This document shows positions 2,790 through 34,425 of a stretch of DNA of 64,000 nt, piece after piece; positions within the stretch are counted from its first letter, which is position 1, and the number at the start of each line of letters is the position of its first letter. Where the stretch lies: contig CBDHEY010000002.1 of NCBI GenBank assembly GCA_965262305.1, positions 657,135 through 721,134 on the forward strand, in the 5' to 3' direction. Under the pieces are notes generated by a model. It did not search any database. It worked only from the letters and a program-made list of their open reading frames with translations, and was not told the DNA's origin. Source of the stretch: Cellvibrionaceae bacterium (GTDB taxonomy: Bacteria; Pseudomonadota; Gammaproteobacteria; Pseudomonadales; Cellvibrionaceae). The position numbers and the translations under genes were made by a program.

Positions 2790-4274
2790 ATGACTCCAAA
2801 AGAGTTCGACCAGTTTAAACAAGCTGGTTTCAATAAAATTCCCCTTTACCGCGAAGTGTTAGCGGACACTGAAACGCCCTTATCAAGTTATCTAAAGTTG
2901 GCTCGCGGTAGTTACTCCTATCTTTTTGAATCTGTCCAAGGTGGCGAAAAATGGGGTCGATACTCGATTATTGGATTACCCGCGTCGGAGCGATTTGAAG
3001 CCTGGGGAAATCAAATAAAGGTGTTTCGTGACGGTGAATGCATTGATTCTTATGAGCACGAGGACCCCTTATCTGCGATTGAGCAACTTAAATCGAGTAT
3101 AAAAGTACCTAATATTGGTGGCTTGCCGAGCTTTTCTGGTGGCCTAGTGGGCTATTTCAGTTATGACACTGTTAGATATGTCGAGCCGAAGCTTGCTAAT
3201 TCAGTCCCTCAAGACAATCAAAACACCCCGGATATTTTATTACTCGTTTCCCAAGAAGTTCTAGTTTTCGATAACCTGAAGGGTAAGCTTCATATTATCG
3301 TTCATGCAGATCCTAACGAAGAGAATAGCTATGAGGCTGCAAAGTCCAAACTGGACAAGCTAGAAGCAAGGTTAAGTATGCCTATTCCTCAGCTACCTAT
3401 TATGCAAATGGCCCAATTTGTTGGTGAGCAGAAAGGGTTAAGTTGTGAAAAAGAGTTTGTTTCAAGTTTCGGCCGTGAAAACTTTATGTCTGCGGTTGAA
3501 CGAGTCAAAGACTACATTTTAGCGGGTGATGCCATGCAAGTGGTGCTGTCGCAAAAAATGCAACTACCTTTTGAATCAGAACCCTTAAATCTGTATCGAG
3601 CTTTGCGATGCCTTAATCCGTCGCCTTATATGTATTTTCTGGATATGGGAGATCATCAAGTAGTAGGATCTAGCCCAGAAATACTCGCTCGCCTAGAAGA
3701 TGATGAAGTAACAGTAAGGCCAATAGCTGGGACGCGTCGTAGAGGCTATGATGATGATGAAGATATTGCATTAGAAAAGGAGCTACTCAACGACCCCAAA
3801 GAAATAGCAGAACATTTAATGTTAATCGACCTTGGGCGCAATGATGTGGGTCGAGTTGCAAAAGTGGGGTCGGTATGCCTTACTGAGAAAATGATTGTCG
3901 AGCGTTATTCCCACGTAATGCATATCATCTCAAATGTCATCGGTAAACTCGATGATAACCTGTCAACAATGGATGTGCTGCGTGCCGCGTTGCCGGCAGG
4001 AACGCTCTCTGGAGCGCCGAAAATCAGAGCAATGGAAATTATTGACGAGCTTGAGCCTGAAAAACGTGGGATATATGGCGGTGCAATTGGTTATATGGCG
4101 TGGAATGGTAATATGGATACGGCCATTGCTATCCGAACAGCTGTTATTAAGGATGGAAAAATATTTGTTCAAGCGGGTGCAGGCGTAGTTGCTGATTCCG
4201 TCCCAGAACTTGAATGGAAAGAAACAATGAATAAAGCTAGGGCTTTATTCAGTGCCATAGATTGGGCAAAATAA
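2790..4274 (+). CDS. trpE: Anthranilate synthase component I
   Basis: Chorismate-binding-enzyme motifs [20 protein letters not shown] and [21 protein letters not shown]. The 494-aa length is typical for TrpE. Confidence 0.95.
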
Positions 4275-4302
4275 CGGAACAGGCGATCGAAGGAGTGGAT
4301 AA

Positions 4303-5025
4303 ATGGCAATTAAAGAGAGCGTGGTGTTGAATATGCAAGGTGAAGAACAGATTGCAAAAATGTCTGAAATTCACCATTTCAATGCGACTGAACTTGATCA
4401 TCTCAAGATACTTCGTCAGGGTACTAATGACGAGAAGATGCTAAAAACTTTCCGTGATCTTCGAACACAACTGTTTGAACAATCCGGCGGAGCCAACTTT
4501 AACTGTATGATCACTTGCGTAGCACCTGGCGGTGGGGCGACACATGTATGTCGTAACTTAGCGGCAGCTATAGCGCTTGATCGTACCAAAACATCTGTTA
4601 TTGTCGATTGTAATTTTTACTCTCCTACGGCTGAGGCGCTTTTAAGCGCTGAAATAAACGTGGGTTTATCTGATTATCTTAATTCCAAAGATATGGGTTT
4701 AGAGTACATCGTATATGCTTCAGGAATCCCTCGAGTAAGAGTCATTCCAGCAGGAAATAACGCAAGGGCTTCAGCAGAACGGGTCTCAACATTTCGCATG
4801 AATCAATTCTTAGACGAAATCAAAAGTCGCTATCCAGACCGTTTTATCTTAATAGATAGTCCAAGTATTTCTGAATATCCTGCTGACGCTAGAATGCTTG
4901 CTCAGGCGGTGGATTTTGTTATTTTGGTTGTACCTTATGGAATGGTTACACCTGCAGAAGTTCAAACTGCAATTAAGGCCATAGGTAATGAACGTTTAGC
5001 GGGTGTGGTGTTTAACAAGGTTTAG
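4303..5025 (+). CDS. BY-kinase / MinD-ParA-fold P-loop protein with a degenerate Walker A (Lys replaced by Ala); candidate PEP-CTERM-locus tyrosine-autokinase-like pseudo-ATPase
   Basis: An AAGGAG RBS lies 8 bp upstream, and the gene starts 28 bp after the trpE stop. FRDLRTQLF matches the BY-kinase N-terminal motif. CVAPGGGATHVCRNLAAAIAL sits where S-x-G-x-G-K-T would be. VIVDCNFYSP corresponds to the LIDxDxRxP motif. ILIDSPSI is Walker A' and DFVILVV is Walker B. There is no C-terminal Tyr cluster. Confidence 0.6.
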   Translation: MAIKESVVLNMQGEEQIAKMSEIHHFNATELDHLKILRQGTNDEKMLKTFRDLRTQLFEQSGGANFNCMITCVAPGGGATHVCRNLAAAIALDRTKTSVIVDCNFYSPTAEALLSAEINVGLSDYLNSKDMGLEYIVYASGIPRVRVIPAGNNARASAERVSTFRMNQFLDEIKSRYPDRFILIDSPSISEYPADARMLAQAVDFVILVVPYGMVTPAEVQTAIKAIGNERLAGVVFNKV

Positions 5026-5086
5026 ACTGGCAAAGAAGTTTCGAACTCTAGAGCTAAACTGCATTGCCGAAATTTATGCGCTAATT

Positions 5087-6454
5087 TCACTCCGTCGGTG
5101 CATTCGCCGATATATTATATTTTTTCATTAGGTCGTAAAGTGTCGGGCGAGTTACCCCTAATTGTTTTGCCGTAGCAGATATGTTGTATTCAGTCATATT
5201 TAATGCACGCAATATTGCGGCTCTTTCTGCGTTGTAGCGCACTTCTCTCAAATTAAGGCTGAAGTTTCCATCGGAGACCAAACCTAAGTCTTCGGAAGAA
5301 ACCAATTTTTCATCTGCCATGACCACACCACGTTTAATGCGATTTTCCATTTCTCGAATGTTTCCAGGCCAATCGTAAGCTTCAATTGCCTCAATGGCTT
5401 CTGGGGAGAAACCCGTTACCGGAGCATTATTTTGTTCGACTGATCGCTGTAAAAAGTGCCTTGCAAGGAGTAATTTATCGCCTTGCCTATTTCGCAAGGG
5501 AGGGATTTCAATTTCCATTTCACATATACGGTAGAAAAGATCTTCTCGAAATGTTCCTTCATTTACCATCTCTTGAAGATTTTTGTTTGTCGCACAAACA
5601 ACGCGAACATCGACAGGAATTTCTTCTCGTCCGCCCACTCGCTCAATGACTCTTTCCTGTAAAAAGCGAAGCAGTTTAGCTTGCAACATAAGTGGCATGT
5701 CGCCAATTTCATCAAGAAAAAGTGTGCCTCCGGATGCCGTTTCTACTTTTCCTTTAGTTGTTTTTGATGCGCCAGTAAAGGCACCTTTTTCGTACCCGAA
5801 CAGTTCACTTTCCATTAGGTTTTCTGGAACTGCAGCGCAGTTAATTGCAACTAAGCGTTTAGACTTTCGCTGGCTAAAGTTATGAAGTGCACGCGCAAGG
5901 ACTTCTTTTCCTGTTCCACTTTCCCCAGTTAGCGTGCAGGTCACATCTGACGGAGCAAGCTTTTCAATCGTACGACAGATTTTTAGCATTTTGGGGTCGC
6001 ACGCGATAATGCCATCTAAAGGGGATTGTTTTTGTTCTTCGGCTTTTCTGTGCTGTTCTTCTAGCGCGTAGATATGAAAAGCTCTTTGCAGAATAAGATC
6101 GAGAGTCTCGGGGTTTACCGGTTTTTGATAGAAATCATATGCACCCATCGCGACGGCTCTTACCGCATTTTCATAGTCTGCATTGCCAGTCATGACGATA
6201 ATTTTTGTCATGGGAGAGATGCTGGATATTTCTCGAATACAGCGGAATCCTTCATCAACACCTTCATCATCAGGTGGTAATCCTAGATCCTGCAAAACAA
6301 TAGGTGGTTCATGTAGACGAATTGCAGCAATTGCTTCTTCGCGATTTGACGCAGCGATTACTTCATATTGATCGAAATGCCAACGTAGTTGGCTTTGTAA
6401 ACCTTGATCATCTTCAACAATTAAAAGTTTTGATTTTTCTTCTTGGTGAGCCAT
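5087..6454 (-). CDS. prsR: Sigma-54-dependent response regulator, PEP-CTERM-box type (PrsR-like)
   Basis: Receiver domain (LLIVEDD...VLQDLGLPPDDEG, the distinctive LGLPPD motif of PrsR). Sigma-54 interaction AAA domain (GESGTGKEV, GAFTGA, ESELFGYEKGAFTGA). C-terminal Fis-type HTH. Confidence 0.85.
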   Translation of the reverse strand: MAHQEEKSKLLIVEDDQGLQSQLRWHFDQYEVIAASNREEAIAAIRLHEPPIVLQDLGLPPDDEGVDEGFRCIREISSISPMTKIIVMTGNADYENAVRAVAMGAYDFYQKPVNPETLDLILQRAFHIYALEEQHRKAEEQKQSPLDGIIACDPKMLKICRTIEKLAPSDVTCTLTGESGTGKEVLARALHNFSQRKSKRLVAINCAAVPENLMESELFGYEKGAFTGASKTTKGKVETASGGTLFLDEIGDMPLMLQAKLLRFLQERVIERVGGREEIPVDVRVVCATNKNLQEMVNEGTFREDLFYRICEMEIEIPPLRNRQGDKLLLARHFLQRSVEQNNAPVTGFSPEAIEAIEAYDWPGNIREMENRIKRGVVMADEKLVSSEDLGLVSDGNFSLNLREVRYNAERAAILRALNMTEYNISATAKQLGVTRPTLYDLMKKYNISANAPTE

Positions 6455-6469
6455 GAAATATTGTTTCTT

Positions 6470-8506
6470 TTAGATGGTTGGAATATTGATAACGAATGTT
6501 GTGCCTTCTCCAAGTGTGCTTTCTACGCTAATGCTCCCTCCAAGTGAAGCAATATACTCCCTCGCCTGATAAACGCCAACGCCCATTCCTTTGCCTGATT
6601 TTGTCGTCTCGAAAGGTTTAAAGAGTTTGTTTTGAATAAAGTCTTGATCCATGCCAGATCCGTTATCTTCTATTGTTAGCATAACAAATCCATCGTCAAG
6701 TTGTGCGGCAATATCTATAAATCCATTATTTGACGTTGCATCTTGAGCATTATGAATGATGTGCGTGAATACCATCACAAGGCTATCAAAGTCGGCTTTT
6801 ACTTTAATGCTCGTATCAATTGGTGCGAGTGTTGGCGTTGGAGGTGTCTTTTGGCATCGTTTAATTGCCTCGATAAGCACTTCTTTAATCGAAAGTGTTT
6901 TTGCGTGATCTGGCTCATTGTGCTGCAATTTACGCAGTAGATTATTCATTCTTTCGACAGAGTTGTTAATCGTGTTAATTGCATCTTCTACGAACGCGGG
7001 GTTGTCTTTGTGTTTCTCCGCGTTCTTAACAACCAGGGATTGCTGTGCAATCAGATTTTTTAAGTCGTGCATTACAAAAGCAGATAACTTGTTAAATGCA
7101 TCAAACTGGCGTACTTCCGTAAGTTGTTCAGCCTGTTCGTGGCGAGTCAAATAGCTTGCAAATTGACGTGCTACTGTCTTTATGAGATCTAAATCTTCCC
7201 AATTTAATGGAGTGAGTTTTTGCTTGCTTGTGAGAACCATAAATCCAAACAAATATCTTTCGGTAAGGAGTGGAAAAATCATCCAAATATTGTCGATTTT
7301 TCGTGCCCAATCAGGAAGTAATTCGTTAAATTGTGACAGGTCTCCTCCATGAGCGCGTGGAGAAAATACCCACTCTTGAGTCAGTGCCCCAGCGAATTCC
7401 GAGGATTCGGGTTCGAATGCTTCAGAAATATCGAAACTTACATTTATTTGTTTTACTGGCACTAAAACTTTTGATCTTTTGATCCAAAGTGCACCACCGT
7501 CACATTTAAACAGATCTGAGGCAACTCTTATTGCTCTGTGCGCTGGATCTTCGGCTTTTTCGTTTCGAGAAAGTTGGTTTATAAGGTTTATCCATTCGGT
7601 CCTATAGTCATATTTATAGCTAAATAGGTGTTTGTTAATTAACACGCTTAGTTTTTCTCTAAGAGAGCGAGATATCAAGATAGAACCAATAGTAAGCAAT
7701 GCCATTACGAGCAGTGCGGTATATATGACCGTACCCCAACTACCGCCATAGAGTTGCACGTAGTAACCCCCAAAAGACAGCACTGTAAGAAGCCCGCCAG
7801 CAATAGATAGTGATGTGGTGTAAAAAATTACCGGGCGCGAAAAAGTAAGCTTTACCGGGGACTCTGTTGGTTGCACTAAAGTGATAAAGCCAATACAGAT
7901 AAGTACACTAGAAGCCATGCTAACCGCAGCTCTGGTTCGCCATAATTCACTATCAAATGCGGAAAAGATTAAATTTTGCGTAAAGAGATAAGCATCGAAT
8001 ATAAATGTTGCTGCCATTACAAGACATAGCAATTTTATTACTCGATAGCGTGTGTTATTGCGATAGAGTTGCTCAACACTCAGAAGACCGACGATCGATA
8101 GCATTATTCCTTGCCAAAAGGTAATCGATTCCAGGGAGTCTACGTGAATTATGTCTAAGTAAATTGCAGAGGCAACCAATAAAAAGGTCGTGCACATCGA
8201 ATATATAACAAATTTATAGAGCTTTGGTAGGCAGTGGGTGCAGAGTTTTTCTGTTGTATGTGTAATCGCGACTATCCATACAACAAAATGGAGAGCTTCC
8301 ATAAAGTAGATTTTTGGAAGGGACTCATCACTAATATTTGAATAGTAAGCAATCGTAGATAACCAGGCAGTTTGCGTTGCTATCGCCACAAATAGTGACC
8401 ATGGTAGCTTACGCTTAATACTCTGAGTTAAAGATGCAATGGTTAGTAAAAAAGAAAGGAATGCCGCGCTTGAATAGGCAATTTGGGTTACGCTATCAAA
8501 TTCCAT
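6470..8506 (-). CDS. prsK: Multi-pass membrane sensor histidine kinase, PrsK-like (XrtA/PEP-CTERM system)
   Basis: About 8 N-terminal TM helices, a central GAF-like region, an H-box (FVMHDLKNLIAQ) and HATPase_c (DNGSGMD...GKGMGVGVYQAREY). It ends 15 bp upstream of prsR on the same strand. Confidence 0.8.
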   Translation of the reverse strand: MEFDSVTQIAYSSAAFLSFLLTIASLTQSIKRKLPWSLFVAIATQTAWLSTIAYYSNISDESLPKIYFMEALHFVVWIVAITHTTEKLCTHCLPKLYKFVIYSMCTTFLLVASAIYLDIIHVDSLESITFWQGIMLSIVGLLSVEQLYRNNTRYRVIKLLCLVMAATFIFDAYLFTQNLIFSAFDSELWRTRAAVSMASSVLICIGFITLVQPTESPVKLTFSRPVIFYTTSLSIAGGLLTVLSFGGYYVQLYGGSWGTVIYTALLVMALLTIGSILISRSLREKLSVLINKHLFSYKYDYRTEWINLINQLSRNEKAEDPAHRAIRVASDLFKCDGGALWIKRSKVLVPVKQINVSFDISEAFEPESSEFAGALTQEWVFSPRAHGGDLSQFNELLPDWARKIDNIWMIFPLLTERYLFGFMVLTSKQKLTPLNWEDLDLIKTVARQFASYLTRHEQAEQLTEVRQFDAFNKLSAFVMHDLKNLIAQQSLVVKNAEKHKDNPAFVEDAINTINNSVERMNNLLRKLQHNEPDHAKTLSIKEVLIEAIKRCQKTPPTPTLAPIDTSIKVKADFDSLVMVFTHIIHNAQDATSNNGFIDIAAQLDDGFVMLTIEDNGSGMDQDFIQNKLFKPFETTKSGKGMGVGVYQAREYIASLGGSISVESTLGEGTTFVINIPTI

Positions 8507-8578
8507 AATTAGATTATATTGTCGTCTCTATTTTATACTCGCCGTTAACAAGGCAAGAAGATTCGCGACAATATATAC

Positions 8579-10870
8579 CTAACTGACAGCCTGTGTGAAG
8601 TGATTAACGATATTGTTCATAACTCTATCAAAAAATGGTGATGAGTCTAGAATCTTTGCCTTATTAAATTGCATGTCATAGGCAAATTGTCGCCGAGTTT
8701 TTTCAAGTGTCTTAAATCCTAGTCTCGATACAAAGATGTAGGACTCTGCATCAATTTTAGCACTGAGTTTACAACGATGTATCTTGCCTTGCTTTTCGTC
8801 TTGGTATTCAATCCATGTTCCCAAGGGAAGGTCTTTTGCCTTTTGATAGTATTTCGACGATAGTTCTTCGTAACGTGACTGTTGACGTTCCAAAGCGGTC
8901 ATTTCTTCCCAGGTTTTCTCGTCTGTTTTAGACTTCCCAAGAATTTCTTTTTGTTCTTCCGAAAGTACTTTTCTTTTAACTTTTCTGCTGTCATTCCCAT
9001 CAATTCTAATAGCTTCTTCAATATTTTTAATAATTGATGATCGTGAATCTAAATTATCTATTGCGCTTTCTAGGCCAACTTCTATTCTAGAAAGTATTTC
9101 GGGCTTTAATCTTTGGGCGCGAGCTTGCGAGCGCTCGTCTGAGTGATCCTGGCTGAGCCAAATCAAATCAGTTACTAGTTGTTCGTTTTCTATCCACTCA
9201 GAAGTATCTTTTCCAGATTTTATGTAGGTAATGACTAAGACTTGAAGCCAGGTATTAGTAAGAAATTCGCTAATTTTTGGATGCAATGCCGCATCTTTCA
9301 TTTTGTCGTAAAGCACTGATTGCGCGAAACTTTTCGCATGCTTTATTTTATACTTTCCTTCTTCTGTTTGAGTTGTTCTCTTTTCGACAACCGCTGATCG
9401 CTTAGATTCTTTATTAATTAGCTTTTCAAGTTCGTCTAAGGCTTGTGCAAAAACAATGACATCTAGCTTGTATTGCTTGTTAATGGTATTAACTGCTTCA
9501 ACCACTTTCTTGTACAAAGGGTCTTTCTCTATGGGCTTGGTTTCATCAAGTGAAAGACCCACCTGCGTGATAGCATTGATTAGCTTTCTGGCAGGATGTT
9601 CCGAATTTGTTAAAAATGAAGTATCGTTTATTGCTACTTTCAAAATAGGGATTTGCAGTCGGCACACAAGAGATTGAATTGCGATGGGCAGATTTTCATC
9701 TTCGAGTACCTTATCAAAAAATAGCGCAACTAAATTGATTGTATCTTCTTCTGGTTGCTCCAAAGATTGGGGCTTTGCAGGATTTTTAGTTGCAAGAAGC
9801 TCGGTAACAAGATCTGGTAAGATATTTTTAGGTGTATCAGCTTTTGCCAGGGCTTGATCGAACTCTGGTTGCCGGTTGGACAAGTTTTTTGCCAAGTCAG
9901 GCGCTTTCATAATCGGGCCAGGATTATTGGCATAGAAATAATAATTGTTCTGACCAGAATTATTAGGGTTATTCGGGATGGTATAAATGGATCCTTGGGT
10001 CGAGCTTCTAATTGCCGCCATTAGCGTTGCTAGGGTACTTTGACTGATAGAAATAGAAGGCTCTGGAGTTGCCAATATCGGAGGCTCATTTGATATGGGC
10101 TCACTCGGTTTTTCTTGTGTCTCCGTTCCAGTTGGAAGCTCTGCATTTTTAGTTTTATTGAGGTTTTTGGGTACCTTAGGGAGTATTCCAGTTTCAACCA
10201 GTATTTGGTTTATATCTGCATAAACATGCCCAAGCTGCTTTAATACGTGTTTTTCGAATAGTTTGAAGACGATCAACCGCGTTTTAATGTTAATTTTGAG
10301 CTTTTCATTACATGCTCCAACGAAAGCAGCAGCAATCTGAGCTGGATCGAGGGGGTTATTTTTTTCGGTAACGTTTATTTGCAATAAAAGGTGGTCAAGT
10401 CGAATCGATATCTCATAAAGTTCTGTCTTGAACGATTCTCTTGTACGATTTGCCATTCCCTTAAGTGCTAAATCGACTTCTAAGTCGTCGCCTTCAACAA
10501 TCGCCAAATTCGATTCGTCTCGATCATGCGTTTCCGTAAATGAGTCCAGCTCTGCCCCGGGAGTCATAAATCGTTCAAAATTAGCCAGTAAAGCCTGAGA
10601 AACGTGTTTTGCCAACCCACCACGTTTAATCCGAAGCTCTCTCATTGACTCGAAATACAGGTTTTCTTCGTTATTGCTTGATGCGCGTTTAGATAGCTCG
10701 TAAAAAAGGTCATCAATAGCTGAGAACATATGGTCTAGATACCTCTCACATGAAGTGATAGTAGTATCTTCTATTTGATTTAACACTCTTGGAGATGGCG
10801 CCGCCTTTTTTGGTGGGGGAGTGTTTTTCACTAGTTCCAGGTGTCCGTCATTGAGTTTGGATGGCGCCAT
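8579..10870 (-). CDS. Large conserved hypothetical protein, DUF1631-like (paralog of the partial ORF at 62129)
   Basis: 763-aa uninterrupted ORF. It shares a colinear block with the ORF at 62129: DENLP...L..P.LK.A..D..F...EHPARKL in this ORF versus DENLP...HTPFLKIAFVDPGFFEKSDHPARLL in the paralog. The assignment to the DUF1631 family is from memory. Confidence 0.6.
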   Translation of the reverse strand: MAPSKLNDGHLELVKNTPPPKKAAPSPRVLNQIEDTTITSCERYLDHMFSAIDDLFYELSKRASSNNEENLYFESMRELRIKRGGLAKHVSQALLANFERFMTPGAELDSFTETHDRDESNLAIVEGDDLEVDLALKGMANRTRESFKTELYEISIRLDHLLLQINVTEKNNPLDPAQIAAAFVGACNEKLKINIKTRLIVFKLFEKHVLKQLGHVYADINQILVETGILPKVPKNLNKTKNAELPTGTETQEKPSEPISNEPPILATPEPSISISQSTLATLMAAIRSSTQGSIYTIPNNPNNSGQNNYYFYANNPGPIMKAPDLAKNLSNRQPEFDQALAKADTPKNILPDLVTELLATKNPAKPQSLEQPEEDTINLVALFFDKVLEDENLPIAIQSLVCRLQIPILKVAINDTSFLTNSEHPARKLINAITQVGLSLDETKPIEKDPLYKKVVEAVNTINKQYKLDVIVFAQALDELEKLINKESKRSAVVEKRTTQTEEGKYKIKHAKSFAQSVLYDKMKDAALHPKISEFLTNTWLQVLVITYIKSGKDTSEWIENEQLVTDLIWLSQDHSDERSQARAQRLKPEILSRIEVGLESAIDNLDSRSSIIKNIEEAIRIDGNDSRKVKRKVLSEEQKEILGKSKTDEKTWEEMTALERQQSRYEELSSKYYQKAKDLPLGTWIEYQDEKQGKIHRCKLSAKIDAESYIFVSRLGFKTLEKTRRQFAYDMQFNKAKILDSSPFFDRVMNNIVNHFTQAVS

Positions 10871-11294
10871 GCTGTATCTCTTGATGTTTCTCTAATTGTA
10901 GCCATTAAATAGGGCAATAGATGAATTAGATGCAATAAGCATTCCTGATGCTTGATTTTTGCGCAATTAAAACAATTTTAGAGGATTCCTATACCTCACA
11001 GAATTGTTAGCTATTGATTTTACTCGATTTTTGTCAACATAAACTAAGACATAATGAGAAAATGGTTACAAATTCGTTATAAACCCAGGGGTGGTGTTTT
11101 CTTTGTGTAAGAAATGTCGACATTTCGAGTGTTTGACTTGGCATTAAATGTTACTTCGTGGTTTTTATGTGAATGCGAAATTTATTTTATTCATCAAAAA
11201 TGAGCATTTGATACATTAGCGCGCTAGTTAATAAAAATGTCATTAATTCTTTCGAGCTCGAGTCTCTCCCGGTTGCGTCTTACGACACGCTCCC

Positions 11295-11300
11295 TATAAT
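11295..11300 (+). promoter_or_regulatory. Candidate sigma-70 promoter for trpGDC (TTGCGT-N16-TATAAT)
   Basis: TATAAT at 11295-11300 with TTGCGT 16 bp upstream, 60 bp before the trpG ATG. Confidence 0.4.
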
Positions 11301-11325
11301 GCTACCTTAATAAAAATGATGTACG

Positions 11326-11346
11326 CGTCTCGGATAGACGTTTTTT
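11326..11346 (+). terminator. Terminator/attenuator-like hairpin in the trpG leader (CGTCT-cggat-AGACG followed by TTTTTT)
   Basis: A 5-6 bp GC-containing stem immediately followed by a T6 run. It lies 16 bp upstream of the trpG start and downstream of the candidate -10. Confidence 0.4.
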
Positions 11347-11361
11347 GCTCAGAGGTTCTTC

Positions 11362-11940
11362 ATGCTTTTAATGATCGATAACTACGATTCATTTACCTAT
11401 AACGTCGTCCAATATTTAGCCGAGTTAAAAGCAGAGGTGAAAGTGATACGTAACGATGAATGCTCGATTGATGAAATCGAAGCCATGTCGCCTGAGCGTA
11501 TTGTTGTTTCACCAGGACCATGTACACCTAATGAAGCAGGTATCTCCGTTCAAGCAATAGAGAGGTTTGCTGGTAAGATTCCAGTTCTTGGAATTTGTTT
11601 GGGGCATCAAAGTATTGGCCAAGCATTTGGTGGAAATATCGTCCGAGCTGAACGTGTCATGCATGGAAAAACGTCTCCTATCCTGCACAAAGGTGTAGGC
11701 GTGTTTTCTGAATTGCCAAAGCGGTTTACAGCAACACGTTATCATTCATTGGTAATAGAAAAAGATACACTTCCAGAGTGCTTAGAACTTACAGCTTGGA
11801 CAGAAGATGATACGGGTGAAATCGCTGAAATAATGGGCGTGAGGCATAAGTTTTTTCCTATTGAAGGTGTGCAATTCCATCCAGAATCTATTTTGAGTGA
11901 GCATGGTCATCAATTGCTTCAAAATTTTTTACATCTGTAA
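11362..11940 (+). CDS. trpG: Anthranilate synthase component II (glutamine amidotransferase)
   Basis: [26 protein letters not shown] contains the catalytic Cys. HPES contains the catalytic His. Confidence 0.95.
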
Positions 11941-11961
11941 ATTTCACTAAGAGCAAAAATT

Positions 11962-12981
11962 ATGGATATCAAGTCTGCTATCGCTAGTCTAGTTGAAGGG
12001 AAAGACCTTTCTAAATCTGAAATGTACGCCGTTATGAAGTCGATTATGACCGGAGAGACGACTGCGGCGCAAATAGGCGCATTTTTAGTAGCACTTAGAA
12101 TCAAAGGCGAATCAATTGACGAAATAGTGGGTGCTGTGGAAGTAATGAGGGAGTTGGCAACGCCTGTTTCGATTCAATCTGAATACTTGGTCGATACCTG
12201 TGGAACAGGTGGTGATGGTGCAAACCTATTTAACGTATCCACTGCTGCTGCATTTGTAGTTGCCGCAGCTGGAGCCCAGGTCGCTAAACATGGAAATCGC
12301 TCTGTTTCTAGCTCAACGGGAAGCGCCGACCTATTAGAGAAGGCTGGTGTAAATCTAAATATTCCTGCGGATCAGGTTGCGCGCGCGGTGCAAGAGATTG
12401 GAGTTGGTTTTATGTTTGCTCCTGCTCATCATGGCGCAATGAAGTACGCAATTGGACCTCGAAAAGAACTGGGTATGCGCACCATATTTAATATGTTGGG
12501 ACCAATGACTAACCCTGCTAGTGTAAAGCGTCAGGTTATCGGCGTATTTTCACGAGATGTAGCCAAGCCAATGGCTGAGGTTTTAAGGCAGCTTGGTAGT
12601 GAGCATGTACTGGTGGTGCACTCTGAAGATGGTCTTGATGAGTTTTCAGTCTCGGCTAGAACGTTTGTCGTTGAACTAAAAGCAGGTGTAATTTCCGAAT
12701 ATGCCGTGTCACCGTCTGGCTATAACTATGACAATCTTGACGGTCTTTCAGTTAATAGCTCAGAAGAATCTCTTGCATTAATTCAAAAAGCTTTTTCTGA
12801 TGATGAGTCAGATGAAGTCGTGAAAGCACGGGACATGATTACACTAAATGCCGGTGCGGCAATTTATGTTTCCGGTTTAGCACTAGATTTAGCTTCTGGC
12901 GTTGAAATGGCAGAAGATGCGTTATCCACTGGACTTGCTAAGGAAAAGCTAAAAGAATTAATTGAATTTACCAATTGCTAA
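11962..12981 (+). CDS. trpD: Anthranilate phosphoribosyltransferase
   Basis: [15 protein letters not shown] and 339-aa length. Immediately follows trpG. Confidence 0.95.
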
Positions 12982-13787
12982 GCGGATTTGTCGTGTCAGA
13001 TACTCCTACAGTACTAAAAAAAATAATTGCGAGAAAACATGAAGAGGTGACCGAGCGCGCTTCGAAGATAAGTGAAAATGAACTTTTACAGAAAGAGTTT
13101 GTGCCATGCAGAGGATTTGTTAAGGCGATCGAAGCTAAAATTAATTTGGGTAGTCCTGCAGTCATTGCCGAAATTAAAAAAGCGTCACCAAGCAAAGGCA
13201 TCATCCGAGAAGACTTTAAACCGAGTGAAATTGCTAAGAGCTATGAGCTTGGTGGCGCGGCTTGCTTGTCTATTTTGACAGATATTGATTTTTTTATGGG
13301 AGCTGATCAGTATCTTAAAGATGCGAGGGCAAGCGTCGAGCTTCCTGTCATTCGAAAAGACTTTATTTTAGATTCGTATCAAATCACTGAGTCTCGCTTT
13401 ATTGGAGCGGATTGCATTCTTCTGATTGTTGCTGCTTTGGATAAGCACCAATTATTTGATTTAAACCAACAGGCTATTGAGTTAGGTTTAGATGTGTTGG
13501 TTGAAGTTCATGACGCAGAAGAATTGGAGTTAGCCTTGGAATTACCAAACAGACTCATAGGAATTAATAATCGCAACCTTCATACTTTCGATGTGAGTTT
13601 AGATACGACCTATCAGCTTCTTCCTAATATTCCTTCTGATAAAATTGTAGTGACCGAAAGCGGAATTTTAGAGTCTTCGCATGTTAAACAGATGCGTGAA
13701 AATAGTGTAAATGCTTTTCTAGTTGGAGAATCTTTTATGCGAGCAGATGATCCTGGTGAAAAACTTAGGTCGCTCTTTCTGTCTTAA
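12975..13787 (+). CDS. trpC: Indole-3-glycerol phosphate synthase
   Basis: [23 protein letters not shown] and VLVEVHD. The ORF track starts at TTG 12975, which overlaps the trpD stop. The in-frame GTG at 12993 ([11 protein letters not shown]) is the more likely true start. Confidence 0.9.
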
Positions 13788-15273: not shown

Positions 15274-15918
15274 TTAAACGTAATAACTTGTTTTTGTCAT
15301 AGCCTTTGAAATCAAACTCATCACGTTTTTGACTGGCTTTGGGAAGTTTGTACCTCCTGCATCTAATGCTGCATGACCATGAGCTTCCTCATCTTCAAGC
15401 ATCTGTTTCAATATTTCTCTGGTTTTTAGGTCGTTCTTTGGTAATTCTTTTAAGTGTGATTTTAAGTGCTCGCTGACTTGCTCCTCAGTCGCTGCGACAA
15501 AGCCTAGGCTAATCTTATCGCTGACTAGACCAGCAGTTGCTCCCAGTCCAAAAGATAAAGAATACCAAAGAGGATTAAAAACACTTGTAGGTTCGTTTAA
15601 TTCTTTTAGTCTCGATTCGCACCAAGCGAGATGATCAATCTCTTCATCAGCCGCTTGCTCCATCTCATATCTTACAGTTTCTAGTTTTGCCGTTATTGAT
15701 TGGCCTTGATACAAAGCTTGCGCACAAACTTCTCCAGCGTGATTTACACGCATTAACCCCGCTACATGTTTTTTTTCCTTCTCAGATAATTCTTGTTCGT
15801 GGTCAACTTTCGAGGCAGGTGAACTGTTTGAAGCCACTTGGGTATTTCGAGTTAACGTTCTTAATGCGCGATCAGATTGAATAATGATCTGATCAATGAA
15901 TGTAATATTTCGTTTCAT
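15274..15918 (-). CDS. coq7: Ubiquinone biosynthesis hydroxylase, COQ7/Cat5 family (di-iron carboxylate)
   Basis: RVNHAGEVCAQALYQGQ and EE..H..W E-x-x-H di-iron motifs. 214-aa length. Confidence 0.85.
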   Translation of the reverse strand: MKRNITFIDQIIIQSDRALRTLTRNTQVASNSSPASKVDHEQELSEKEKKHVAGLMRVNHAGEVCAQALYQGQSITAKLETVRYEMEQAADEEIDHLAWCESRLKELNEPTSVFNPLWYSLSFGLGATAGLVSDKISLGFVAATEEQVSEHLKSHLKELPKNDLKTREILKQMLEDEEAHGHAALDAGGTNFPKPVKNVMSLISKAMTKTSYYV

Positions 15919-16003
15919 GTTTTTCCAAAATTACGCTAATCTAAAGCGTTTCTCGATGTCTTGTATGTTAATTTTTGTGCCAAAAAAGGAAACTTTATAC
16001 TCG

Positions 16004-17491
16004 ATGAATAATAATGATTTACAGCTGATTCTCAACACAAATGTTTCTTTGGTTGTTATCGAAACTTACGATGAACCTCGTGCACTCGATTTGCTTAAAG
16101 GCGCGTTTCAGATCAATAACATTCCAGCATGGCGCTGGACCGTCACCGAGGGATTAGAGACATTGGGTTTTGGTGTAAAACTCATGGAGCATGAAAAGCG
16201 CACAGATCCAGATGAATTATTAATGCATATAAAATCGAGCCGACAAGCTTCTGCATTTGTACTTTGCGATTTTCACCCTTATCTCGAAGAACATAAAACG
16301 ATTAGGCATTTAAAAGACATTGCTCTCGAGAGTAACCGTACAGGGCACAAAATTGTCCTTATAAGCCATGAACTAAAACTTCCTCCAGAGTTGAGTCGCT
16401 ATGCGTCTTCGGTAAGACTTTCTCTGCCGGACGAAAGCGAAATACTTTCAATTGTTCGAAGTCAAGCGAGGTCTTGGGCAGAAGCAAACAAAAAATCTCG
16501 TATTAAAACAGATAATGTGACACTAAATAAATTGGTAAACAATCTTTCGGGTTTGACTCACCAAGATGTTGAGCGATTGGCTCATTCTGCAATAGCGGAT
16601 GACGGAGCAATTACGGAATCTGATTTGCCAGAGATTACACGTGCTAAATTCGAATTAATGGATATGGAAGGCGTCTTGCACTATGAGTACAGTTTGGCTC
16701 ACCTAAAAGATGTTGGAGGCCTAAACGGTTTAAAAGGTTGGCTAGCCGAGCGAAAAGATGCGGTACTAGAACCCGTATGTATCGACGAGCCTTTTCTAGA
16801 TGCTCCGAAGGGAGTGCTTTTATTTGGCGTGCAAGGTGGAGGTAAAAGCCTTGCGGCCAAAGCAATCGCTGGAATATGGGGCTTACCTTTATTACGTTTA
16901 GACATGGCGAGTCTATTTAATAAGTTTATTGGCGAAACGGAAAAGAACCTTAGAAAATCTTTAGAACTTGCAGATCTTATGGCGCCTTGTGTACTGTGGA
17001 TGGATGAAATTGAGAAAGGGCTCGCCAACGATAGCTCAGATAATGCAACAGGAAAACGTCTTCTGGGTACGTTGTTGACATGGATAGCAGAAAGAAAGAG
17101 TCGCGTTTTTATGGTGGCCACAAGCAACGACATTAGCATTTTGCCGCCGGAATTAATGCGCAAGGGAAGATTCGACGAAGTATTTTTTGTTGATCTTCCT
17201 GATAATGAAACGAGAGAAATAATTTTTCGTATTCATATGGAAAAACGAAAAATAAACCCCGAATCTTTTGACCTCACTGTTCTTGCTCAACAAACAGAAG
17301 GCTTTACCGGTGCGGAAATTGAACAAGCTATTGTGAGTGGTATCTATTCAGCTCGGGCACAAAAAGAAAATGTTAATCAAGTGCATGTCTCTCGTGCAAT
17401 CCTAAATACGCAACCTTTATCTGTCGTAATGTCGGAGAAAATTGAACGCTTGCGCTCATGGGCGATAAAGCGAGCCGTCGCTGCAAACTAA
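16004..17491 (+). CDS. Classic-clade AAA+ ATPase with an uncharacterised ~250-aa N-terminal domain
   Basis: Walker A GVQGGGKSL, Walker B VLWMDEIEK, sensor-1 ATSND and Arg finger RKGRFD. The ATG at 16004 (MNNNDLQ...) is the likely true start; the ORF track's 15896 start adds 36 spurious codons overlapping the coq7 start. Confidence 0.8.
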   Translation: MNNNDLQLILNTNVSLVVIETYDEPRALDLLKGAFQINNIPAWRWTVTEGLETLGFGVKLMEHEKRTDPDELLMHIKSSRQASAFVLCDFHPYLEEHKTIRHLKDIALESNRTGHKIVLISHELKLPPELSRYASSVRLSLPDESEILSIVRSQARSWAEANKKSRIKTDNVTLNKLVNNLSGLTHQDVERLAHSAIADDGAITESDLPEITRAKFELMDMEGVLHYEYSLAHLKDVGGLNGLKGWLAERKDAVLEPVCIDEPFLDAPKGVLLFGVQGGGKSLAAKAIAGIWGLPLLRLDMASLFNKFIGETEKNLRKSLELADLMAPCVLWMDEIEKGLANDSSDNATGKRLLGTLLTWIAERKSRVFMVATSNDISILPPELMRKGRFDEVFFVDLPDNETREIIFRIHMEKRKINPESFDLTVLAQQTEGFTGAEIEQAIVSGIYSARAQKENVNQVHVSRAILNTQPLSVVMSEKIERLRSWAIKRAVAAN

Positions 17492-24224: not shown

Positions 24225-24788
24225 TTATTTCGCCTTCTTTACCTTAGACTTGCGAGCGGATGTGTGCCACAAATAAGCGAAAATTACTCCGCCCAATGCG
24301 CCACCTATGTGCGCTTCGAAAGAAATGTACGCTGACACTGGTAACAACCCATAAATCATGCCACCTTCTAGTAATATCACAAGAGTTGCGTACAAAACAT
24401 AGACAATTTTTTTTTCGAAAAATGCCCTAAATATTATTAGCGTCCACATTCCAAATATTACGCCACTGGCTCCTATGTGGATTCCTGGGCGCGCGACGAG
24501 CCACACAAATAGGCCACTGAATAGCGCCAAAAAAATCAAACTACTATAAAAATAGGTTTTACCCAAACCTACTAAGAAAAATGAAAAAAGTAAAAAGCCT
24601 ATTGAATTCGAAAGTAGATGTTCAATATTACCATGAAGAAATGGCGCACTTAACACATAAAATAGGTGCTCATTAGATCTGGGCAAAACACCGAAACGAC
24701 TTAAGTTCAGTGAGAAGTAATGATCCACAATAAATACGAGAATTAAAATCAATACGATGTTTATTGCCGTGCGATAGTTTTTTAGCAA
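24225..24788 (-). CDS. Rhomboid-family intramembrane serine protease
   Basis: Six TM helices with the catalytic GASGVIFG (GxSG) and AHIGGALGG (His) motifs. 187 aa. It is the last gene of the mltB-rlpA insertion. Confidence 0.8.
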   Translation of the reverse strand: MLKNYRTAINIVLILILVFIVDHYFSLNLSRFGVLPRSNEHLFYVLSAPFLHGNIEHLLSNSIGFLLFSFFLVGLGKTYFYSSLIFLALFSGLFVWLVARPGIHIGASGVIFGMWTLIIFRAFFEKKIVYVLYATLVILLEGGMIYGLLPVSAYISFEAHIGGALGGVIFAYLWHTSARKSKVKKAK

Positions 24789-30126: not shown

Positions 30127-30214
30127 AACTGTTTTCCTTCAAAAAATGACTATACTTTGGTCCGAGAAATACTCAACAAGTAAATAGTGAGACAGAAATT
30201 TCTCTTGGTATAGC

Positions 30215-30754: not shown

Positions 30755-30769
30755 TTTAATCGCTCGTTC

Positions 30770-31009
30770 TTACAACCCGAATTTGGACTTGATTTCGCTA
30801 ACTCGCTGAATCATAGTTTGGTCCAGGTCTTTATCATTGAGCCTTGATATAATATTGCTTAGAACACGTTTCTCGTTCTCATCAACTACACCATCTCGCA
30901 GCGCAACGTCTACGAGGCCGTTTAATTCATCTACATCTAGCTTGCCATCATCTGCAAAACAATTGATAGATTTGAATGTCAGCTCTAAATAATCGCGTGA
31001 TTCGCTCAT
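30770..31009 (-). CDS. Small acidic hypothetical protein (79 aa; TerB/DjlA-N-like repeat character)
   Basis: Tightly packed between the flotillin and zinc-ribbon genes (15-16 bp gaps). DGKLDVDELNGLVDVALRDGVVDENEKRVL pattern. Confidence 0.4.
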   Translation of the reverse strand: MSESRDYLELTFKSINCFADDGKLDVDELNGLVDVALRDGVVDENEKRVLSNIISRLNDKDLDQTMIQRVSEIKSKFGL

Positions 31010-31025
31010 TTTGTTCTCCTTTTTC

Positions 31026-34413: not shown

Positions 34414-34425
34414 TTTAATGCTCCT

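What the first reader, a model, noticed from the sequence alone, without database searches (positions are those of the whole stretch)
2790..11361. The trpE-trpG junction carries a PrsK/PrsR signalling module plus DUF1631 instead of being contiguous
trpE (ending at 4274) and trpGDC (starting at 11362) are separated by ~7 kb. The insert encodes a BY-kinase-like pseudo-ATPase, a PrsR-type sigma-54 response regulator, a PrsK-type multi-TM histidine kinase and a 763-aa DUF1631-like protein. In P. aeruginosa the same junction hosts the R/F-pyocin cluster, so this is a recognised insertion hotspot. PrsK/PrsR normally sit beside exosortase (XrtA)/PEP-CTERM exopolysaccharide genes. No exosortase, PrsT or EPS genes occur anywhere in this 64 kb window, so the module is either orphaned or controls distant targets.
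Basis: partly seen in the sequence, partly recalled or inferred. Interest (0 to 1): 0.6.

Follow-up and report, generated by a model that had tools for sequence, protein, structure and literature searches.

The report
PrsK/PrsR sensor module with DUF1631 partner
Between the tryptophan genes trpE and trpG lies an intact, anciently inherited two-component switch of the kind that controls slime and surface-protein export, and its unknown-function neighbour DUF1631 turns out to be a conserved partner and probable target of that switch.

Summary
trpE (2790-4274) and trpGDC (from 11362) are 7.1 kb apart. Between them lie a 240-aa BY-kinase-like protein, PrsR, PrsK and a 763-aa DUF1631 protein. PrsR (TIGR02915, 681 bits against a 503 cutoff) and PrsK (TIGR02916, 572 against 300) pass NCBI's equivalog cutoffs, and their catalytic motifs are intact. 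The BY-kinase-like protein fails TIGR03018 and lacks the Walker-A lysine and the Tyr tail, as do all its orthologs. No exosortase, PrsT, PEP-CTERM or EPS gene lies in the 64 kb.

The "insertion hotspot" reading is not supported. The trpGDC|DUF1631-PrsK-PrsR arrangement is shared across the Cellvibrionaceae, has the same GC as its flanks, and shows no mobile-element marks. In many relatives EPS genes or PrsT directly follow PrsR. In Cellvibrio an exosortase and a PEP-CTERM gene do.

New here: DUF1631 sits immediately upstream of PrsK in 47 of 70 loci, in three different flanking contexts. In the window and about 24 relatives it is preceded by a sigma-54-type promoter (10931-10945) and a 17-nt TGTCG-N6-TTTACA box (11106-11122). 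The same box precedes PEP-CTERM genes in relatives and fits the published description of the predicted PrsR site. DUF1631 therefore looks like a PrsR/sigma-54 target. Whether this genome keeps an exosortase could not be tested.

The parts
2790..4274 (+). trpE (anthranilate synthase component I). It is the left flank, not part of the module.
   Evidence: TIGR00564 564 bits against a 517.7 cutoff. Its adjacency to the module varies among relatives.
4303..5025 (+). BY-kinase-like pseudo-ATPase of 240 aa. It is a degenerate relative of the XrtA-associated tyrosine autokinase and starts 28 nt after the trpE stop.
   Evidence: TIGR03018 158.4 bits, below the 230.65 cutoff. The closest solved relatives are the Wzc, VpsO, CapB and Etk kinase domains. 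The Walker-A Lys is replaced (GGGAT) and there is no C-terminal Tyr cluster, in the window and in all 14 Cellvibrionaceae orthologs. The Walker A' and B Asp residues are kept. A similarly degenerate copy follows the XrtA chain-length determinant in L076.
5087..6454 (-). prsR: PEP-CTERM-box response regulator (REC, sigma-54 AAA+ and Fis-type HTH domains).
   Evidence: TIGR02915 681.1 bits against a 502.6 cutoff. Pfam finds Response_reg, Sigma54_activat and HTH_8. D56, GESGTGK, GAFTGA and the Walker B motif are intact. It is 82-89% identical to orthologs in other genera.
6470..8506 (-). prsK: multi-TM, GAF-containing histidine kinase. It ends 15 nt before prsR.
   Evidence: TIGR02916 571.7 bits against a 300 cutoff. 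It has at least 6 hydrophobic segments in residues 1-280. The H-box HDLKN and the N/G boxes are intact. The median PrsK-to-PrsR gap is 14 nt across 70 loci.
8570..8599 (-). Sigma-70-like promoter match (TTCACA-18-TATATT) at the end of the DUF1631 ORF. It may give basal prsKR transcription.
   Evidence: Consensus scan, 10 of 12 positions. This is a pattern match only. No terminator-like hairpin lies on the minus strand between DUF1631 and prsK.
8579..10870 (-). PrsK-linked DUF1631 protein (763 aa). It is cytoplasmic, mostly helical, and has a small C-terminal beta-barrel.
   Evidence: PF07793 619.6 bits. PacR NF058594 scores 184, below its 1200 cutoff. It lies immediately upstream of PrsK on the same strand in 47 of 70 loci, in trpG, meaB and ispB contexts. 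It forms one clade distinct from the window's second DUF1631. The AF2 model has pLDDT 81, with no informative PDB match.
10931..10945 (-). Sigma-54-type promoter (GGAATGCTTATTGCA, i.e. -24 GG / -12 TTGCA). Its GC dinucleotide is about 62 nt upstream of the DUF1631 ATG.
   Evidence: Conserved in the closer relatives L081 and L082. GG-N8-TTGC[AT] occurs within 180 nt upstream of DUF1631 in 20 of 52 cases, against 18 of 537 for other gene families. It is the only strong PWM hit in the window.
11017..11032 (-). Conserved A/T-rich block AAAAATCGAGTAAAAT between the enhancer box and the promoter. It may be a DNA-bending (IHF-like) site; this is untested.
   Evidence: Identical in the window, L081 and L082. 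AAATCAA-type k-mers recur in other loci. The proposed role is inference only.
11106..11122 (-). PEP-CTERM-box-like enhancer TGTCGACATTTCTTACA (17 nt, TGTCG-N6-[C/T]TTACA). It lies 160 nt upstream of the sigma-54 promoter and is the predicted PrsR binding site.
   Evidence: Conserved in L081 and L082. The motif is upstream of DUF1631 in 24 of 52 regions and upstream of a few EPS-linked genes, but in none of the 462 upstream regions of the other families scanned. The same motif sits directly upstream of PEP-CTERM genes in L031, L035, L036, L041 and L047. It fits the text description of motif 1 in Haft 2006: 17 nt with TTTACA at the 3' end.
11362..13787 (+). trpG-trpD-trpC, the right flank, transcribed divergently from DUF1631.
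   Evidence: NCBIfam hits. trpG is always adjacent to DUF1631 in the Cellvibrionaceae loci.

Best explanation
The interval holds a vertically inherited, functional PrsK/PrsR two-component system with two conserved accessory genes.

Shown:
- PrsK is a multi-TM/GAF histidine kinase with all catalytic motifs intact. PrsR is a sigma-54-dependent enhancer-binding response regulator, also with all catalytic motifs intact.
- DUF1631 is the conserved upstream neighbour of prsK.
- DUF1631 is preceded by a sigma-54-type promoter and a 17-nt TGTCG-N6-TTTACA box. In related genomes the same box precedes PEP-CTERM genes.

Inferred:
- PrsK senses an unknown signal in the membrane or through its GAF domain and phosphorylates PrsR.
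- Phosphorylated PrsR binds the box at 11106-11122 and activates the sigma-54 promoter at 10931-10945.
- This raises DUF1631 and, by read-through, prsK and prsR, giving a positive feedback loop. A weak sigma-70-like promoter in front of prsK would supply basal expression.
- The same regulator drives box-bearing PEP-CTERM and EPS genes elsewhere in the genome, if they exist.
- The Walker-A-defective BY-kinase-like protein is a retained non-catalytic component of the former XrtA-type polysaccharide export and chain-length machinery.
- DUF1631 acts as an output or feedback modulator of the circuit. Its biochemistry is unknown.

The position next to trpGDC is ancestral synteny of the Cellvibrionaceae. 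In this sublineage the EPS genes that follow PrsR in many relatives have been lost or moved, leaving PrsR next to the pseudo-kinase, trpE and rpe.
For: - HMM scores are above the equivalog cutoffs for PrsR and PrsK, and the catalytic motifs are intact.
- Purifying selection is evident: PrsR is 82-89% identical, PrsK 52-62%, DUF1631 44-58% and the BYK-like protein 53-63% to orthologs in other genera, with no pseudogenes among about 30 Cellvibrionaceae loci.
- Synteny is conserved, including in a 70%-identity relative on a 1.6-Mb contig.
- GC is flat, and there are no tRNAs or repeats.
- In relatives PrsR is followed by PrsT plus glycosyltransferases (L028, above the TIGR02917 cutoff), by a WcaJ-type priming transferase and GT4s (L012-L021), or by a PEP-CTERM protein plus an exosortase (L035 and others). 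L037 has DUF1631-PrsK-PrsR followed by an exosortase fragment.
- DUF1631 adjoins PrsK in 47 of 70 loci and in three different upstream contexts. The PrsK-linked DUF1631 proteins form a single clade.
- The box and sigma-54 promoter are conserved upstream of DUF1631 and pass clean negative controls. The same box lies upstream of PEP-CTERM genes, with the sigma-54 site 64-65 nt downstream, in L041 and L047. This matches Haft 2006.
- PrsK, RpoN and PEP-CTERM genes have been linked genetically to floc formation in Aquincola.
Against: - No PEP-CTERM, exosortase, PrsT or EPS gene is in the window, and the whole genome was not available. The main presumed regulon is therefore unverified.
- Profile searches for exosortase and PrsT found nothing on the complete genomes of Teredinibacter or Agarilytica, which carry the same module. 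Those searches also missed known positives, so this is weak evidence.
- The window's box has one mismatch to the TTTACA core (CTTACA). Its 160-nt spacing to the promoter is longer than the 32-92 nt reported for PEP-CTERM genes.
- A PWM score as high as the window's box occurs in about 4 of 30 shuffles of the whole 64 kb. Its significance therefore rests on position and cross-species conservation.
- The published logo could not be inspected, only its text description.
- DUF1631-to-PrsK gaps have a median of 123 nt, so co-transcription is not certain.
- Non-Cellvibrionaceae loci that have DUF1631-PrsK lack the box upstream of DUF1631.
Confidence: 0.65

Rival explanations
1. Orphaned and rewired module. 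This sublineage (the window, Agarilytica, Teredinibacter) has lost exosortase, PrsT and PEP-CTERM proteins altogether. PrsK/PrsR survive because they now control only DUF1631, themselves and perhaps the pseudo-kinase, or other non-PEP-CTERM genes.
For: No EPS, exosortase or PrsT gene is in the 64 kb. Exosortase and PrsT profile searches returned no protein on contigs with the lengths of the complete Teredinibacter or Agarilytica genomes, or of the 1.6-Mb relative contig. All of these did yield DUF1631 orthologs in the same database. The only box plus sigma-54 promoter pair in the window is the one in front of DUF1631.
Against: The protein searches depend on shared 5-mers. They failed to return most of the query sequences' own genomes and also missed known XrtA-positive species, so the negative result is weak. 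PrsR is 82-89% conserved, and the pseudo-kinase derived from an XrtA-type kinase is retained; both suggest a larger regulon is still served. In Haft 2006, PrsK, PrsR and PrsT matched the PEP-CTERM-box phylogenetic profile exactly.
Confidence: 0.3
2. Recent horizontal insertion of a signalling cassette into a trpE-trpG hotspot, analogous to the pyocin cluster of P. aeruginosa.
For: The same two trp genes flank the pyocin locus in P. aeruginosa. The content between PrsR and trpE/rpe does vary among relatives.
Against: GC content is the same as in the flanks. There are no tRNAs, integrases, transposases or bounding repeats. The trpG-DUF1631-PrsK-PrsR order is present in essentially every Cellvibrionaceae locus examined, and the DUF1631 tree follows taxonomy.
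Confidence: 0.03
3. The DUF1631-PrsK adjacency is inherited synteny without a functional link, and the upstream sigma-54 promoter is served by a different enhancer-binding protein.
For: DUF1631-to-PrsK gaps are loose (median 123 nt). The Cellvibrio-type loci have PrsKR without DUF1631. DUF1631 proteins exist widely without PrsK, for example the second copy in this window and PacR in Xanthomonas.
Against: The adjacency survives three independent changes of upstream context and a tandem duplication. The box upstream of DUF1631 is the one found upstream of PEP-CTERM genes in relatives, and it is absent from all 462 control upstream regions of the other gene families.
Confidence: 0.1
4. The pair is a generic NtrC/AtoC-type system that was mislabelled as PrsK/PrsR.
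For: PrsR also scores 407 bits against AtoC and 380 against NtrC, as any member of this architecture does.
Against: The TIGR02915 and TIGR02916 scores exceed the curated equivalog cutoffs by wide margins, and every other model falls far below its own cutoff. Orthologs sit beside exosortase, PEP-CTERM and PrsT genes in relatives.
Confidence: 0.02

Closest known systems
PrsK/PrsR/PrsT regulatory system of the PEP-CTERM/exosortase (XrtA) system (Haft et al. 2006, PMC1569441). PrsK, RpoN and PEP-CTERM genes were later tied genetically to floc formation in Aquincola and Zoogloea (PMC9850573).
   Same: It has the same two protein families, both above equivalog cutoffs, and the same tandem kinase-regulator arrangement. 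The cis-architecture is of the same kind: a 17-nt box ending in TTTACA followed by a sigma-54 promoter. Orthologs in relatives lie beside exosortase, PEP-CTERM, PrsT and EPS genes.
   Different: There is no PrsT, exosortase, PEP-CTERM or glycosyltransferase gene within 64 kb, whereas 12 of 13 genomes in Haft 2006 had EPS markers nearby. The only box-bearing gene here is a DUF1631 gene, not a PEP-CTERM gene. The box-to-promoter spacing is about 160 nt rather than about 63 nt. A DUF1631 partner has not been described for this system in the literature searched.
XrtA-associated tyrosine autokinase (TIGR03018) and BY-kinases (Wzc, CapB, Etk, VpsO)
   Same: It has the same P-loop kinase-domain fold family by sequence (E 4.5e-12 to Wzc 3LA6) and keeps the Walker A' and Walker B aspartates.
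   Different: It scores below the family cutoff, the Walker-A lysine is replaced, there is no C-terminal tyrosine cluster, and no adjacent chain-length-determinant partner is present. It is therefore predicted to be non-catalytic. All orthologs are equally degenerate.
PacR (XC_3388) of Xanthomonas campestris, the only studied DUF1631 protein (PMC9543026)
   Same: It belongs to the same Pfam family, PF07793. PacR is implicated in biofilm, motility and c-di-GMP-related gene expression, which is the same physiological area as EPS and floc control.
   Different: It scores only 184 bits against the PacR model (cutoff 1200) and belongs to a distinct PrsK-linked clade. A link between PacR and PrsK, or between PacR and sigma-54, is not mentioned in the passages of the PacR paper that were read. 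The biochemical function is unknown for both proteins.
R/F-pyocin cluster between trpE and trpG in Pseudomonas aeruginosa
   Same: It has the same pair of flanking genes.
   Different: The pyocin cluster is a domesticated prophage-tail element. The module here is a chromosomal regulatory unit with family-wide conserved synteny and no mobile-element features.

Membership tests
[quoted passage not shown] | Score at or above the curated equivalog cutoff | tested here: met
   681.1 bits against 502.6, full length (10-448 of 455). The next best model is AtoC at 406.7, below its 714 cutoff.
[quoted passage not shown] | REC + sigma-54 AAA+ + Fis-type HTH architecture with an intact phospho-acceptor Asp, Walker A/B and GAFTGA | tested here: met
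   Pfam finds Response_reg, Sigma54_activat, AAA_lid_14 and HTH_8. D56, GESGTGK, GAFTGA and LFLDEIGD are visible in the translation.
[quoted passage not shown] | Presence of the cognate cis-element (17-nt box ending TTTACA followed by a sigma-54 promoter) in the genome | tested here: met
   One instance lies in the window, at 11106-11122 with the promoter at 10931-10945, upstream of DUF1631. It is conserved in relatives and identical in form to the boxes upstream of PEP-CTERM genes in L031, L035, L036, L041 and L047. Caveats: one mismatch in the core and longer spacing.
PrsR/PrsK system | Co-occurrence in the same genome with PEP-CTERM proteins and an exosortase (the phylogenetic profile of Haft 2006) | not testable with these tools
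   Only 64 kb of the source genome is available, and none of these genes is in it. Indirect searches in relatives were inconclusive.
PrsK (TIGR02916) | Score at or above the curated equivalog cutoff, over the full length | tested here: met
   571.7 bits against 300, covering residues 10-676 of 678.
PrsK (TIGR02916) | Polytopic N-terminal membrane domain plus a cytoplasmic histidine kinase, encoded in tandem with PrsR | tested here: met
   At least 6 hydrophobic segments in residues 1-280. GAF_3 and HATPase_c hits. H-box HDLKN. There is a 15-nt gap to prsR.
PrsT (TIGR02917) | TPR lipoprotein encoded in the genome, often in tandem with PrsKR | tested here: not met
   It is absent from the window: a tblastn with 13 PrsT sequences from related loci gave no hit. 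It is present after PrsR in L028, L031, L041, L053 and others. The rest of the genome could not be tested.
XrtA-associated tyrosine autokinase (TIGR03018) / BY-kinase | Score at or above the curated cutoff | tested here: not met
   158.4 bits against 230.65. A genuine member from L072 scores 255.6.
XrtA-associated tyrosine autokinase (TIGR03018) / BY-kinase | Walker A GxxxxGK[ST] with the catalytic Lys | tested here: not met
   The motif reads APGGGATHV, and the Ala aligns with Wzc residue 540. All 14 orthologs lack the Lys.
XrtA-associated tyrosine autokinase (TIGR03018) / BY-kinase | C-terminal tyrosine cluster (autophosphorylation sites) | tested here: not met
   The protein ends ...AGVVFNKV with no Tyr. 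The L072 and L073 kinases end in Y-rich tails.
DUF1631 (PF07793) | Full-length match above the gathering score | tested here: met
   619.6 bits against 33.7, covering residues 23-756.
PacR (NF058594) | Score at or above the curated cutoff | tested here: not met
   183.9 bits against 1200. It is the same superfamily but not a PacR ortholog.
Genomic island / hotspot insertion | Compositional deviation, mobility genes, a tRNA or repeat boundaries, and patchy distribution among close relatives | tested here: not met
   GC is 0.37-0.43 inside and 0.37-0.47 outside. There are no tRNAs, and only chance-level repeats. The arrangement is conserved family-wide.

The most novel reading that the evidence does not exclude
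The PrsK-linked DUF1631 subfamily is a dedicated, previously unrecognised component of the PrsK/PrsR circuit. It is co-inherited with the kinase, is transcribed from a PrsR-box/sigma-54 promoter, and acts as the feedback modulator or effector of the system. This would be consistent with the c-di-GMP and biofilm phenotypes of the distant relative PacR. In this lineage the circuit may persist with DUF1631 and a pseudo-kinase after losing the exosortase/PEP-CTERM machinery it was first defined by. That would give the first mechanistic handle on the widespread DUF1631 family.
Probability: 0.35. Interest if true: 0.6.

Novelty: new variant of a known kind. Interest (0 to 1): 0.42.

Why it matters
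PrsK/PrsR is the predicted master switch for PEP-CTERM/exosortase-dependent exopolysaccharide and floc formation, but its signal and its accessory factors are unknown. DUF1631 is a large, widespread gammaproteobacterial family with no known function. Its one studied member, PacR, affects virulence, biofilm formation and c-di-GMP-related genes.

This analysis shows that one DUF1631 subfamily is the constant neighbour of PrsK and carries the PrsR-box/sigma-54 signature. That turns both unknowns into a testable hypothesis using deletions, EMSA and two-hybrid assays in culturable Teredinibacter, Saccharophagus or Agarilytica. It also corrects a tempting but wrong "hotspot insertion" reading of the trpE-trpG interval.

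Tried and rejected
- **Exact-sequence look-up of PrsK.** The protein is not on record. The source genome is also absent from genome contigs: the best PrsK hit is 62% identical. A whole-genome check for xrtA was therefore impossible.
- **Strict sigma-54 consensus scan.** TGGCAC-N5-TTGCW with up to 2 mismatches gave 22 hits against 31 expected, none of them intergenic. It missed the real candidate, which has 3 mismatches in the -24 hexamer. That site was found only by aligning the intergenic region with closer relatives.
- **Rfam scan of the window.** No family was found.
- **Repeats and tRNAs around the interval.** Nothing was found beyond chance.
- **Exosortase and PrsT profile searches of the 5.8-billion-protein set.** The aim was to learn whether Teredinibacter and Agarilytica genomes carry these genes elsewhere. 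No hits came from those genomes. The searches also failed to return most of the query sequences' own genomes and known XrtA-positive species, so the result was rejected as decisive evidence.
- **Whole-window PWM scan for the box.** The top hit is the DUF1631 site, but random shuffles of 64 kb reach that score in about 4 of 30 trials. The PWM alone is not proof.
- **Rhomboid at 24225-24788 as a possible rhombosortase.** Rejected: TIGR03902 scores 31.8, below its cutoff of 84.

Full report
**1. Observation**

The ORF map matches the finding exactly:
- trpE 2790-4274(+)
- a 240-aa ORF 4303-5025(+)
- a 455-aa ORF 5087-6454(-)
- a 678-aa ORF 6470-8506(-)
- a 763-aa ORF 8579-10870(-)
- a 490-bp intergenic region
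- trpG 11362(+), then trpD and trpC

- PrsR scores 681.1 bits against TIGR02915 (cutoff 502.6).
- PrsK scores 571.7 bits against TIGR02916 (cutoff 300). Every other two-component model falls far below its own cutoff, so the "generic NtrY/NtrX" refutation does not apply.
- DUF1631 scores 619.6 bits against PF07793. It scores only 184 bits against NCBIfam PacR (cutoff 1200).
- The 240-aa protein hits TIGR03018 (XrtA-associated tyrosine autokinase) best, at 158.4 bits, below the 230.65 cutoff.

PrsK has at least six strongly hydrophobic segments in its first 280 residues, a GAF hit, an H-box (HDLKN) and intact N/G boxes. PrsR has D56, GESGTGK, GAFTGA and a C-terminal HTH. Both therefore look catalytically competent.

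**2. The pseudo-kinase**

The closest solved relatives of the 240-aa protein are BY-kinase domains: Wzc, VpsO, CapB, BceF and Etk. Its Walker A reads APGGGATHV. The Ala aligns with residue 540 of Wzc, the catalytic lysine, which is mutated to Met in structure 3LA6. There is no C-terminal tyrosine cluster.

An alignment of the 14 Cellvibrionaceae orthologs shows the same loss in all of them. The Walker A' and B aspartates are kept, and overall identity is 53-63%. This is a conserved pseudo-enzyme, not a decaying gene.

Genuine TIGR03018 kinases in L072 and L073 have GEGKTF or GDGKTF and Tyr-rich tails. In L076 (Pseudohongiella) an equally degenerate copy sits after the XrtA-type export protein (TIGR03027) and chain-length determinant (TIGR03007, above cutoff), in a locus that also holds PrsR, PrsK, PrsT and an exosortase-EpsI fusion. 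The window protein is therefore best read as a non-catalytic derivative of the XrtA-system kinase.

**3. Surroundings**

The rest of the window is housekeeping:
- murU, rpe, crp, osmC, coq7, nadN, lipA, lipB
- dacA, rlpA, mltB, rodA, mrdA
- rlmH, rsfS, nadD, proA
- purD, purH, dusB, prmA, accC, dsbD and others

A tblastn of every ORF from 80 related loci against the whole window found no exosortase, PrsT, priming transferase or EPS glycosyltransferase. A scan for C-terminal PEP-CTERM signatures found seven clear cases in related loci and none in the window.

**4. Not an insertion**

GC content is flat across the interval and its flanks. There are no tRNAs, no bounding repeats beyond chance, no mobility genes, and no Rfam elements.

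A scan of one genome per species with PrsK returned 80 loci. The best are only 62% identical, and all the closest are Cellvibrionaceae: Agarilytica, Teredinibacter, Saccharophagus and Marinagarivorans. Synteny mapping shows coq7-osmC-crp-trpCDG | DUF1631-PrsK-PrsR in essentially every Cellvibrionaceae locus that has enough flank. A closer relative on a 1.6-Mb contig (DUF1631 70% identical) has exactly the window's order, including the 240-aa gene, trpE, rpe, a DUF3530 gene and murU.

What varies is the far side of PrsR:
- pseudo-kinase, then trpE, then rpe (the window, Teredinibacter-type)
- pseudo-kinase, then rpe, without trpE (Agarilytica)
- a WcaJ-type priming transferase plus GT4 and WecB-family transferases (Saccharophagus- and Marinagarivorans-type)
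- PrsT plus an aminotransferase and glycosyltransferases (Exilibacterium L028)

In the Cellvibrio-type loci, PrsKR lies elsewhere and is followed by a PEP-CTERM protein, an exosortase and glycosyltransferases. The module is therefore ancestral next to trpGDC. The window represents a reduced state in which the adjacent EPS genes are gone. The P. aeruginosa pyocin parallel is factually right but is only a coincidence of flanking genes.

**5. DUF1631 is a partner, not a bystander**

Among 70 loci with enough upstream sequence, 47 have a DUF1631 gene immediately upstream of PrsK on the same strand. The pairing persists in three different upstream contexts:
- trpG in the Cellvibrionaceae
- methylmalonyl-CoA mutase/meaB in L041, L046, L048, L049 and the Ketobacteraceae locus L053
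- ispB in L037, L055 and L060-L069, where DUF1631 is tandemly duplicated

L041 and L053 also carry PrsT and a PEP-CTERM protein. L037 runs straight from PrsR into an exosortase.

A neighbour-joining tree places all PrsK-linked DUF1631 proteins in one clade that mirrors taxonomy. A second DUF1631 gene at the window's right end (62129 onwards) falls outside it.

PrsK-to-PrsR gaps are tight, with a median of 14 nt. DUF1631-to-PrsK gaps are looser, with a median of 123 nt and 72 nt in the window.

**6. Cis-regulatory evidence**

The trpG-DUF1631 intergenic region was aligned with two closer relatives. This revealed conserved blocks on the DUF1631 strand:
- GGAATGCTTATTGCA (10945 to 10931), a -24 GG / -12 TTGCA sigma-54-type promoter whose GC lies about 62 nt before the ATG
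- AAAAATCGAGTAAAAT (11032 to 11017)
- TGTCGACATTTCTTACA (11122 to 11106)

GG-N8-TTGC[AT] occurs within 180 nt upstream of DUF1631 in 20 of 52 regions, against 18 of 537 for other gene families. Several of those 18 are PEP-CTERM, PrsT or exosortase genes.

The 17-nt element has the consensus TGTCG(A/G)-N5-TTTACA. It occurs on the correct strand upstream of:
- DUF1631 in 24 of 52 regions
- the pseudo-kinase gene in 3 of 18 regions (L022, L026, L032)
- a few EPS genes
- none of the 462 upstream regions of the other families scanned, including trpG, which shares the same intergenic DNA on the other strand

The same element sits directly upstream of the PEP-CTERM genes of L031, L035, L036, L041 and L047. 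In L041 and L047 a sigma-54 site follows 64-65 nt downstream.

This corresponds to the text description in Haft et al. 2006. Their motif 1 is 17 nt, ends in TTTACA, is the predicted PrsR site, and is followed after about 63 nt by a sigma-54 motif that lies about 71 nt before the start codon.

Caveats:
- The published logo could not be viewed.
- The window's box has CTTACA.
- The spacing here is about 160 nt.
- A PWM score equal to the window's occurs in about 4 of 30 shuffles of the full 64 kb. The case therefore rests on position and conservation.
- No other convincing box or sigma-54 site exists in the window.

**7. Mechanism proposed**

Shown:
- an intact kinase-regulator pair of the PrsK/PrsR families
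- a conserved DUF1631 partner
- a conserved box plus sigma-54 promoter in front of DUF1631

Inferred:
- Phosphorylated PrsR activates this promoter. That induces DUF1631 and, by read-through, prsK and prsR. No terminator-like hairpin lies between them, and a sigma-70-like match at 8599-8570 could give basal prsKR expression.
- The same regulator would control box-bearing PEP-CTERM and EPS genes elsewhere, if the genome has them.
- DUF1631 is cytoplasmic, helical, and has a small C-terminal barrel. No solved structure is informative about it. Its role as feedback modulator or effector is a hypothesis. It is coloured by the biofilm and c-di-GMP phenotypes of the distant family member PacR.
- Genetic work in Aquincola links prsK, rpoN and a PEP-CTERM gene to floc formation. 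This supports the general logic of the system.

**8. What stays open**

It is not known whether the source genome still encodes an exosortase/PEP-CTERM system. Profile searches with Cellvibrionaceae exosortases and PrsT proteins returned no hits on contigs matching the complete Teredinibacter or Agarilytica genomes, or the long contigs of closer relatives. Those same genomes did yield DUF1631 orthologs. However, the searches also missed most of the queries' own genomes and classical XrtA-positive species. This is only a weak hint toward the "orphaned" alternative, which I put at about 0.3.

**9. Verdict**

- The "insertion at a hotspot" interpretation is wrong.
- The "orphaned or distant targets" question is unresolved.
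- The pair itself is an ordinary member of known, automatically annotatable families.
- The added value is the DUF1631-PrsK linkage, the PrsR-box/sigma-54 signature in front of DUF1631, and the conserved pseudo-kinase. Together these make this a new variant of a known system and give a testable entry point to DUF1631 function.
- Interest is moderate (0.42).

Noticed in passing
window 62129-64000 (+), runs off the window end: This is a second DUF1631 paralog, at least 624 aa long (PacR model 205 bits, below cutoff). It is 24-34% identical to the PrsK-linked DUF1631 proteins and falls outside their clade. No PrsR-type box lies upstream of it.
   Followed up: partly
window 24859-35058 (-): A 1755-aa protein carries DUF3686 ('ATPase involved in DNA repair'), DUF7902 and an AAA domain. 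Its neighbours are a Zn-ribbon protein, two proteins of 649 and 217 aa with no Pfam hit, PspA/IM30 and DUF2170. The cluster is uncharacterised and may be related to stress or defence.
   Followed up: no
window 42372-45665 (-): A three-gene set encodes a sugar-transfer-associated ATP-grasp protein, an inactive transglutaminase fused to 7 TM helices, and a putative ATP-dependent Zn protease. This is a recurrent but poorly understood gene trio.
   Followed up: no
window 11283-11361 (+): A TATAAT-like box and a terminator-like hairpin (11325-11341) with a T-run lie immediately before the trpG start codon. They are conserved with relative L081. This may be a leader or attenuator for trpGDC. There is no Rfam match, and no obvious Trp-rich leader peptide was seen.
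   Followed up: partly
window 24225-24788 (-): This rhomboid-family protein lies next to rlpA. It is not a rhombosortase: TIGR03902 scores 31.8 bits against a cutoff of 84. Relatives such as Saccharophagus and Teredinibacter are nonetheless listed as GlyGly-CTERM species (PMC3237569).
   Followed up: yes
L060-L065 and L069, about 5000-9900: Two divergent DUF1631 genes lie in tandem directly upstream of PrsK-PrsR, in Pseudomonadales MAGs. They are followed by deacetylase, glycosyltransferase and ~880-aa genes (clusters c89/c91; the one scanned, L060, had no NCBIfam hit, so a PrsT identity is unconfirmed).
   Followed up: partly
L022 ~12039, L026 ~14328, L032 ~14375 (minus strand): In one Cellvibrionaceae subclade the PrsR-type box also sits upstream of the pseudo-kinase gene, in the trpE-pseudo-kinase spacer. 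In the window that spacer is only 28 nt and holds no box.
   Followed up: partly
window 15896-17491 (+): A 531-aa AAA+ ATPase (Cdc48/FtsH-like domain, with a weak IteA anti-phage hit below cutoff) overlaps the start of coq7. It is conserved at this position in relatives.
   Followed up: no
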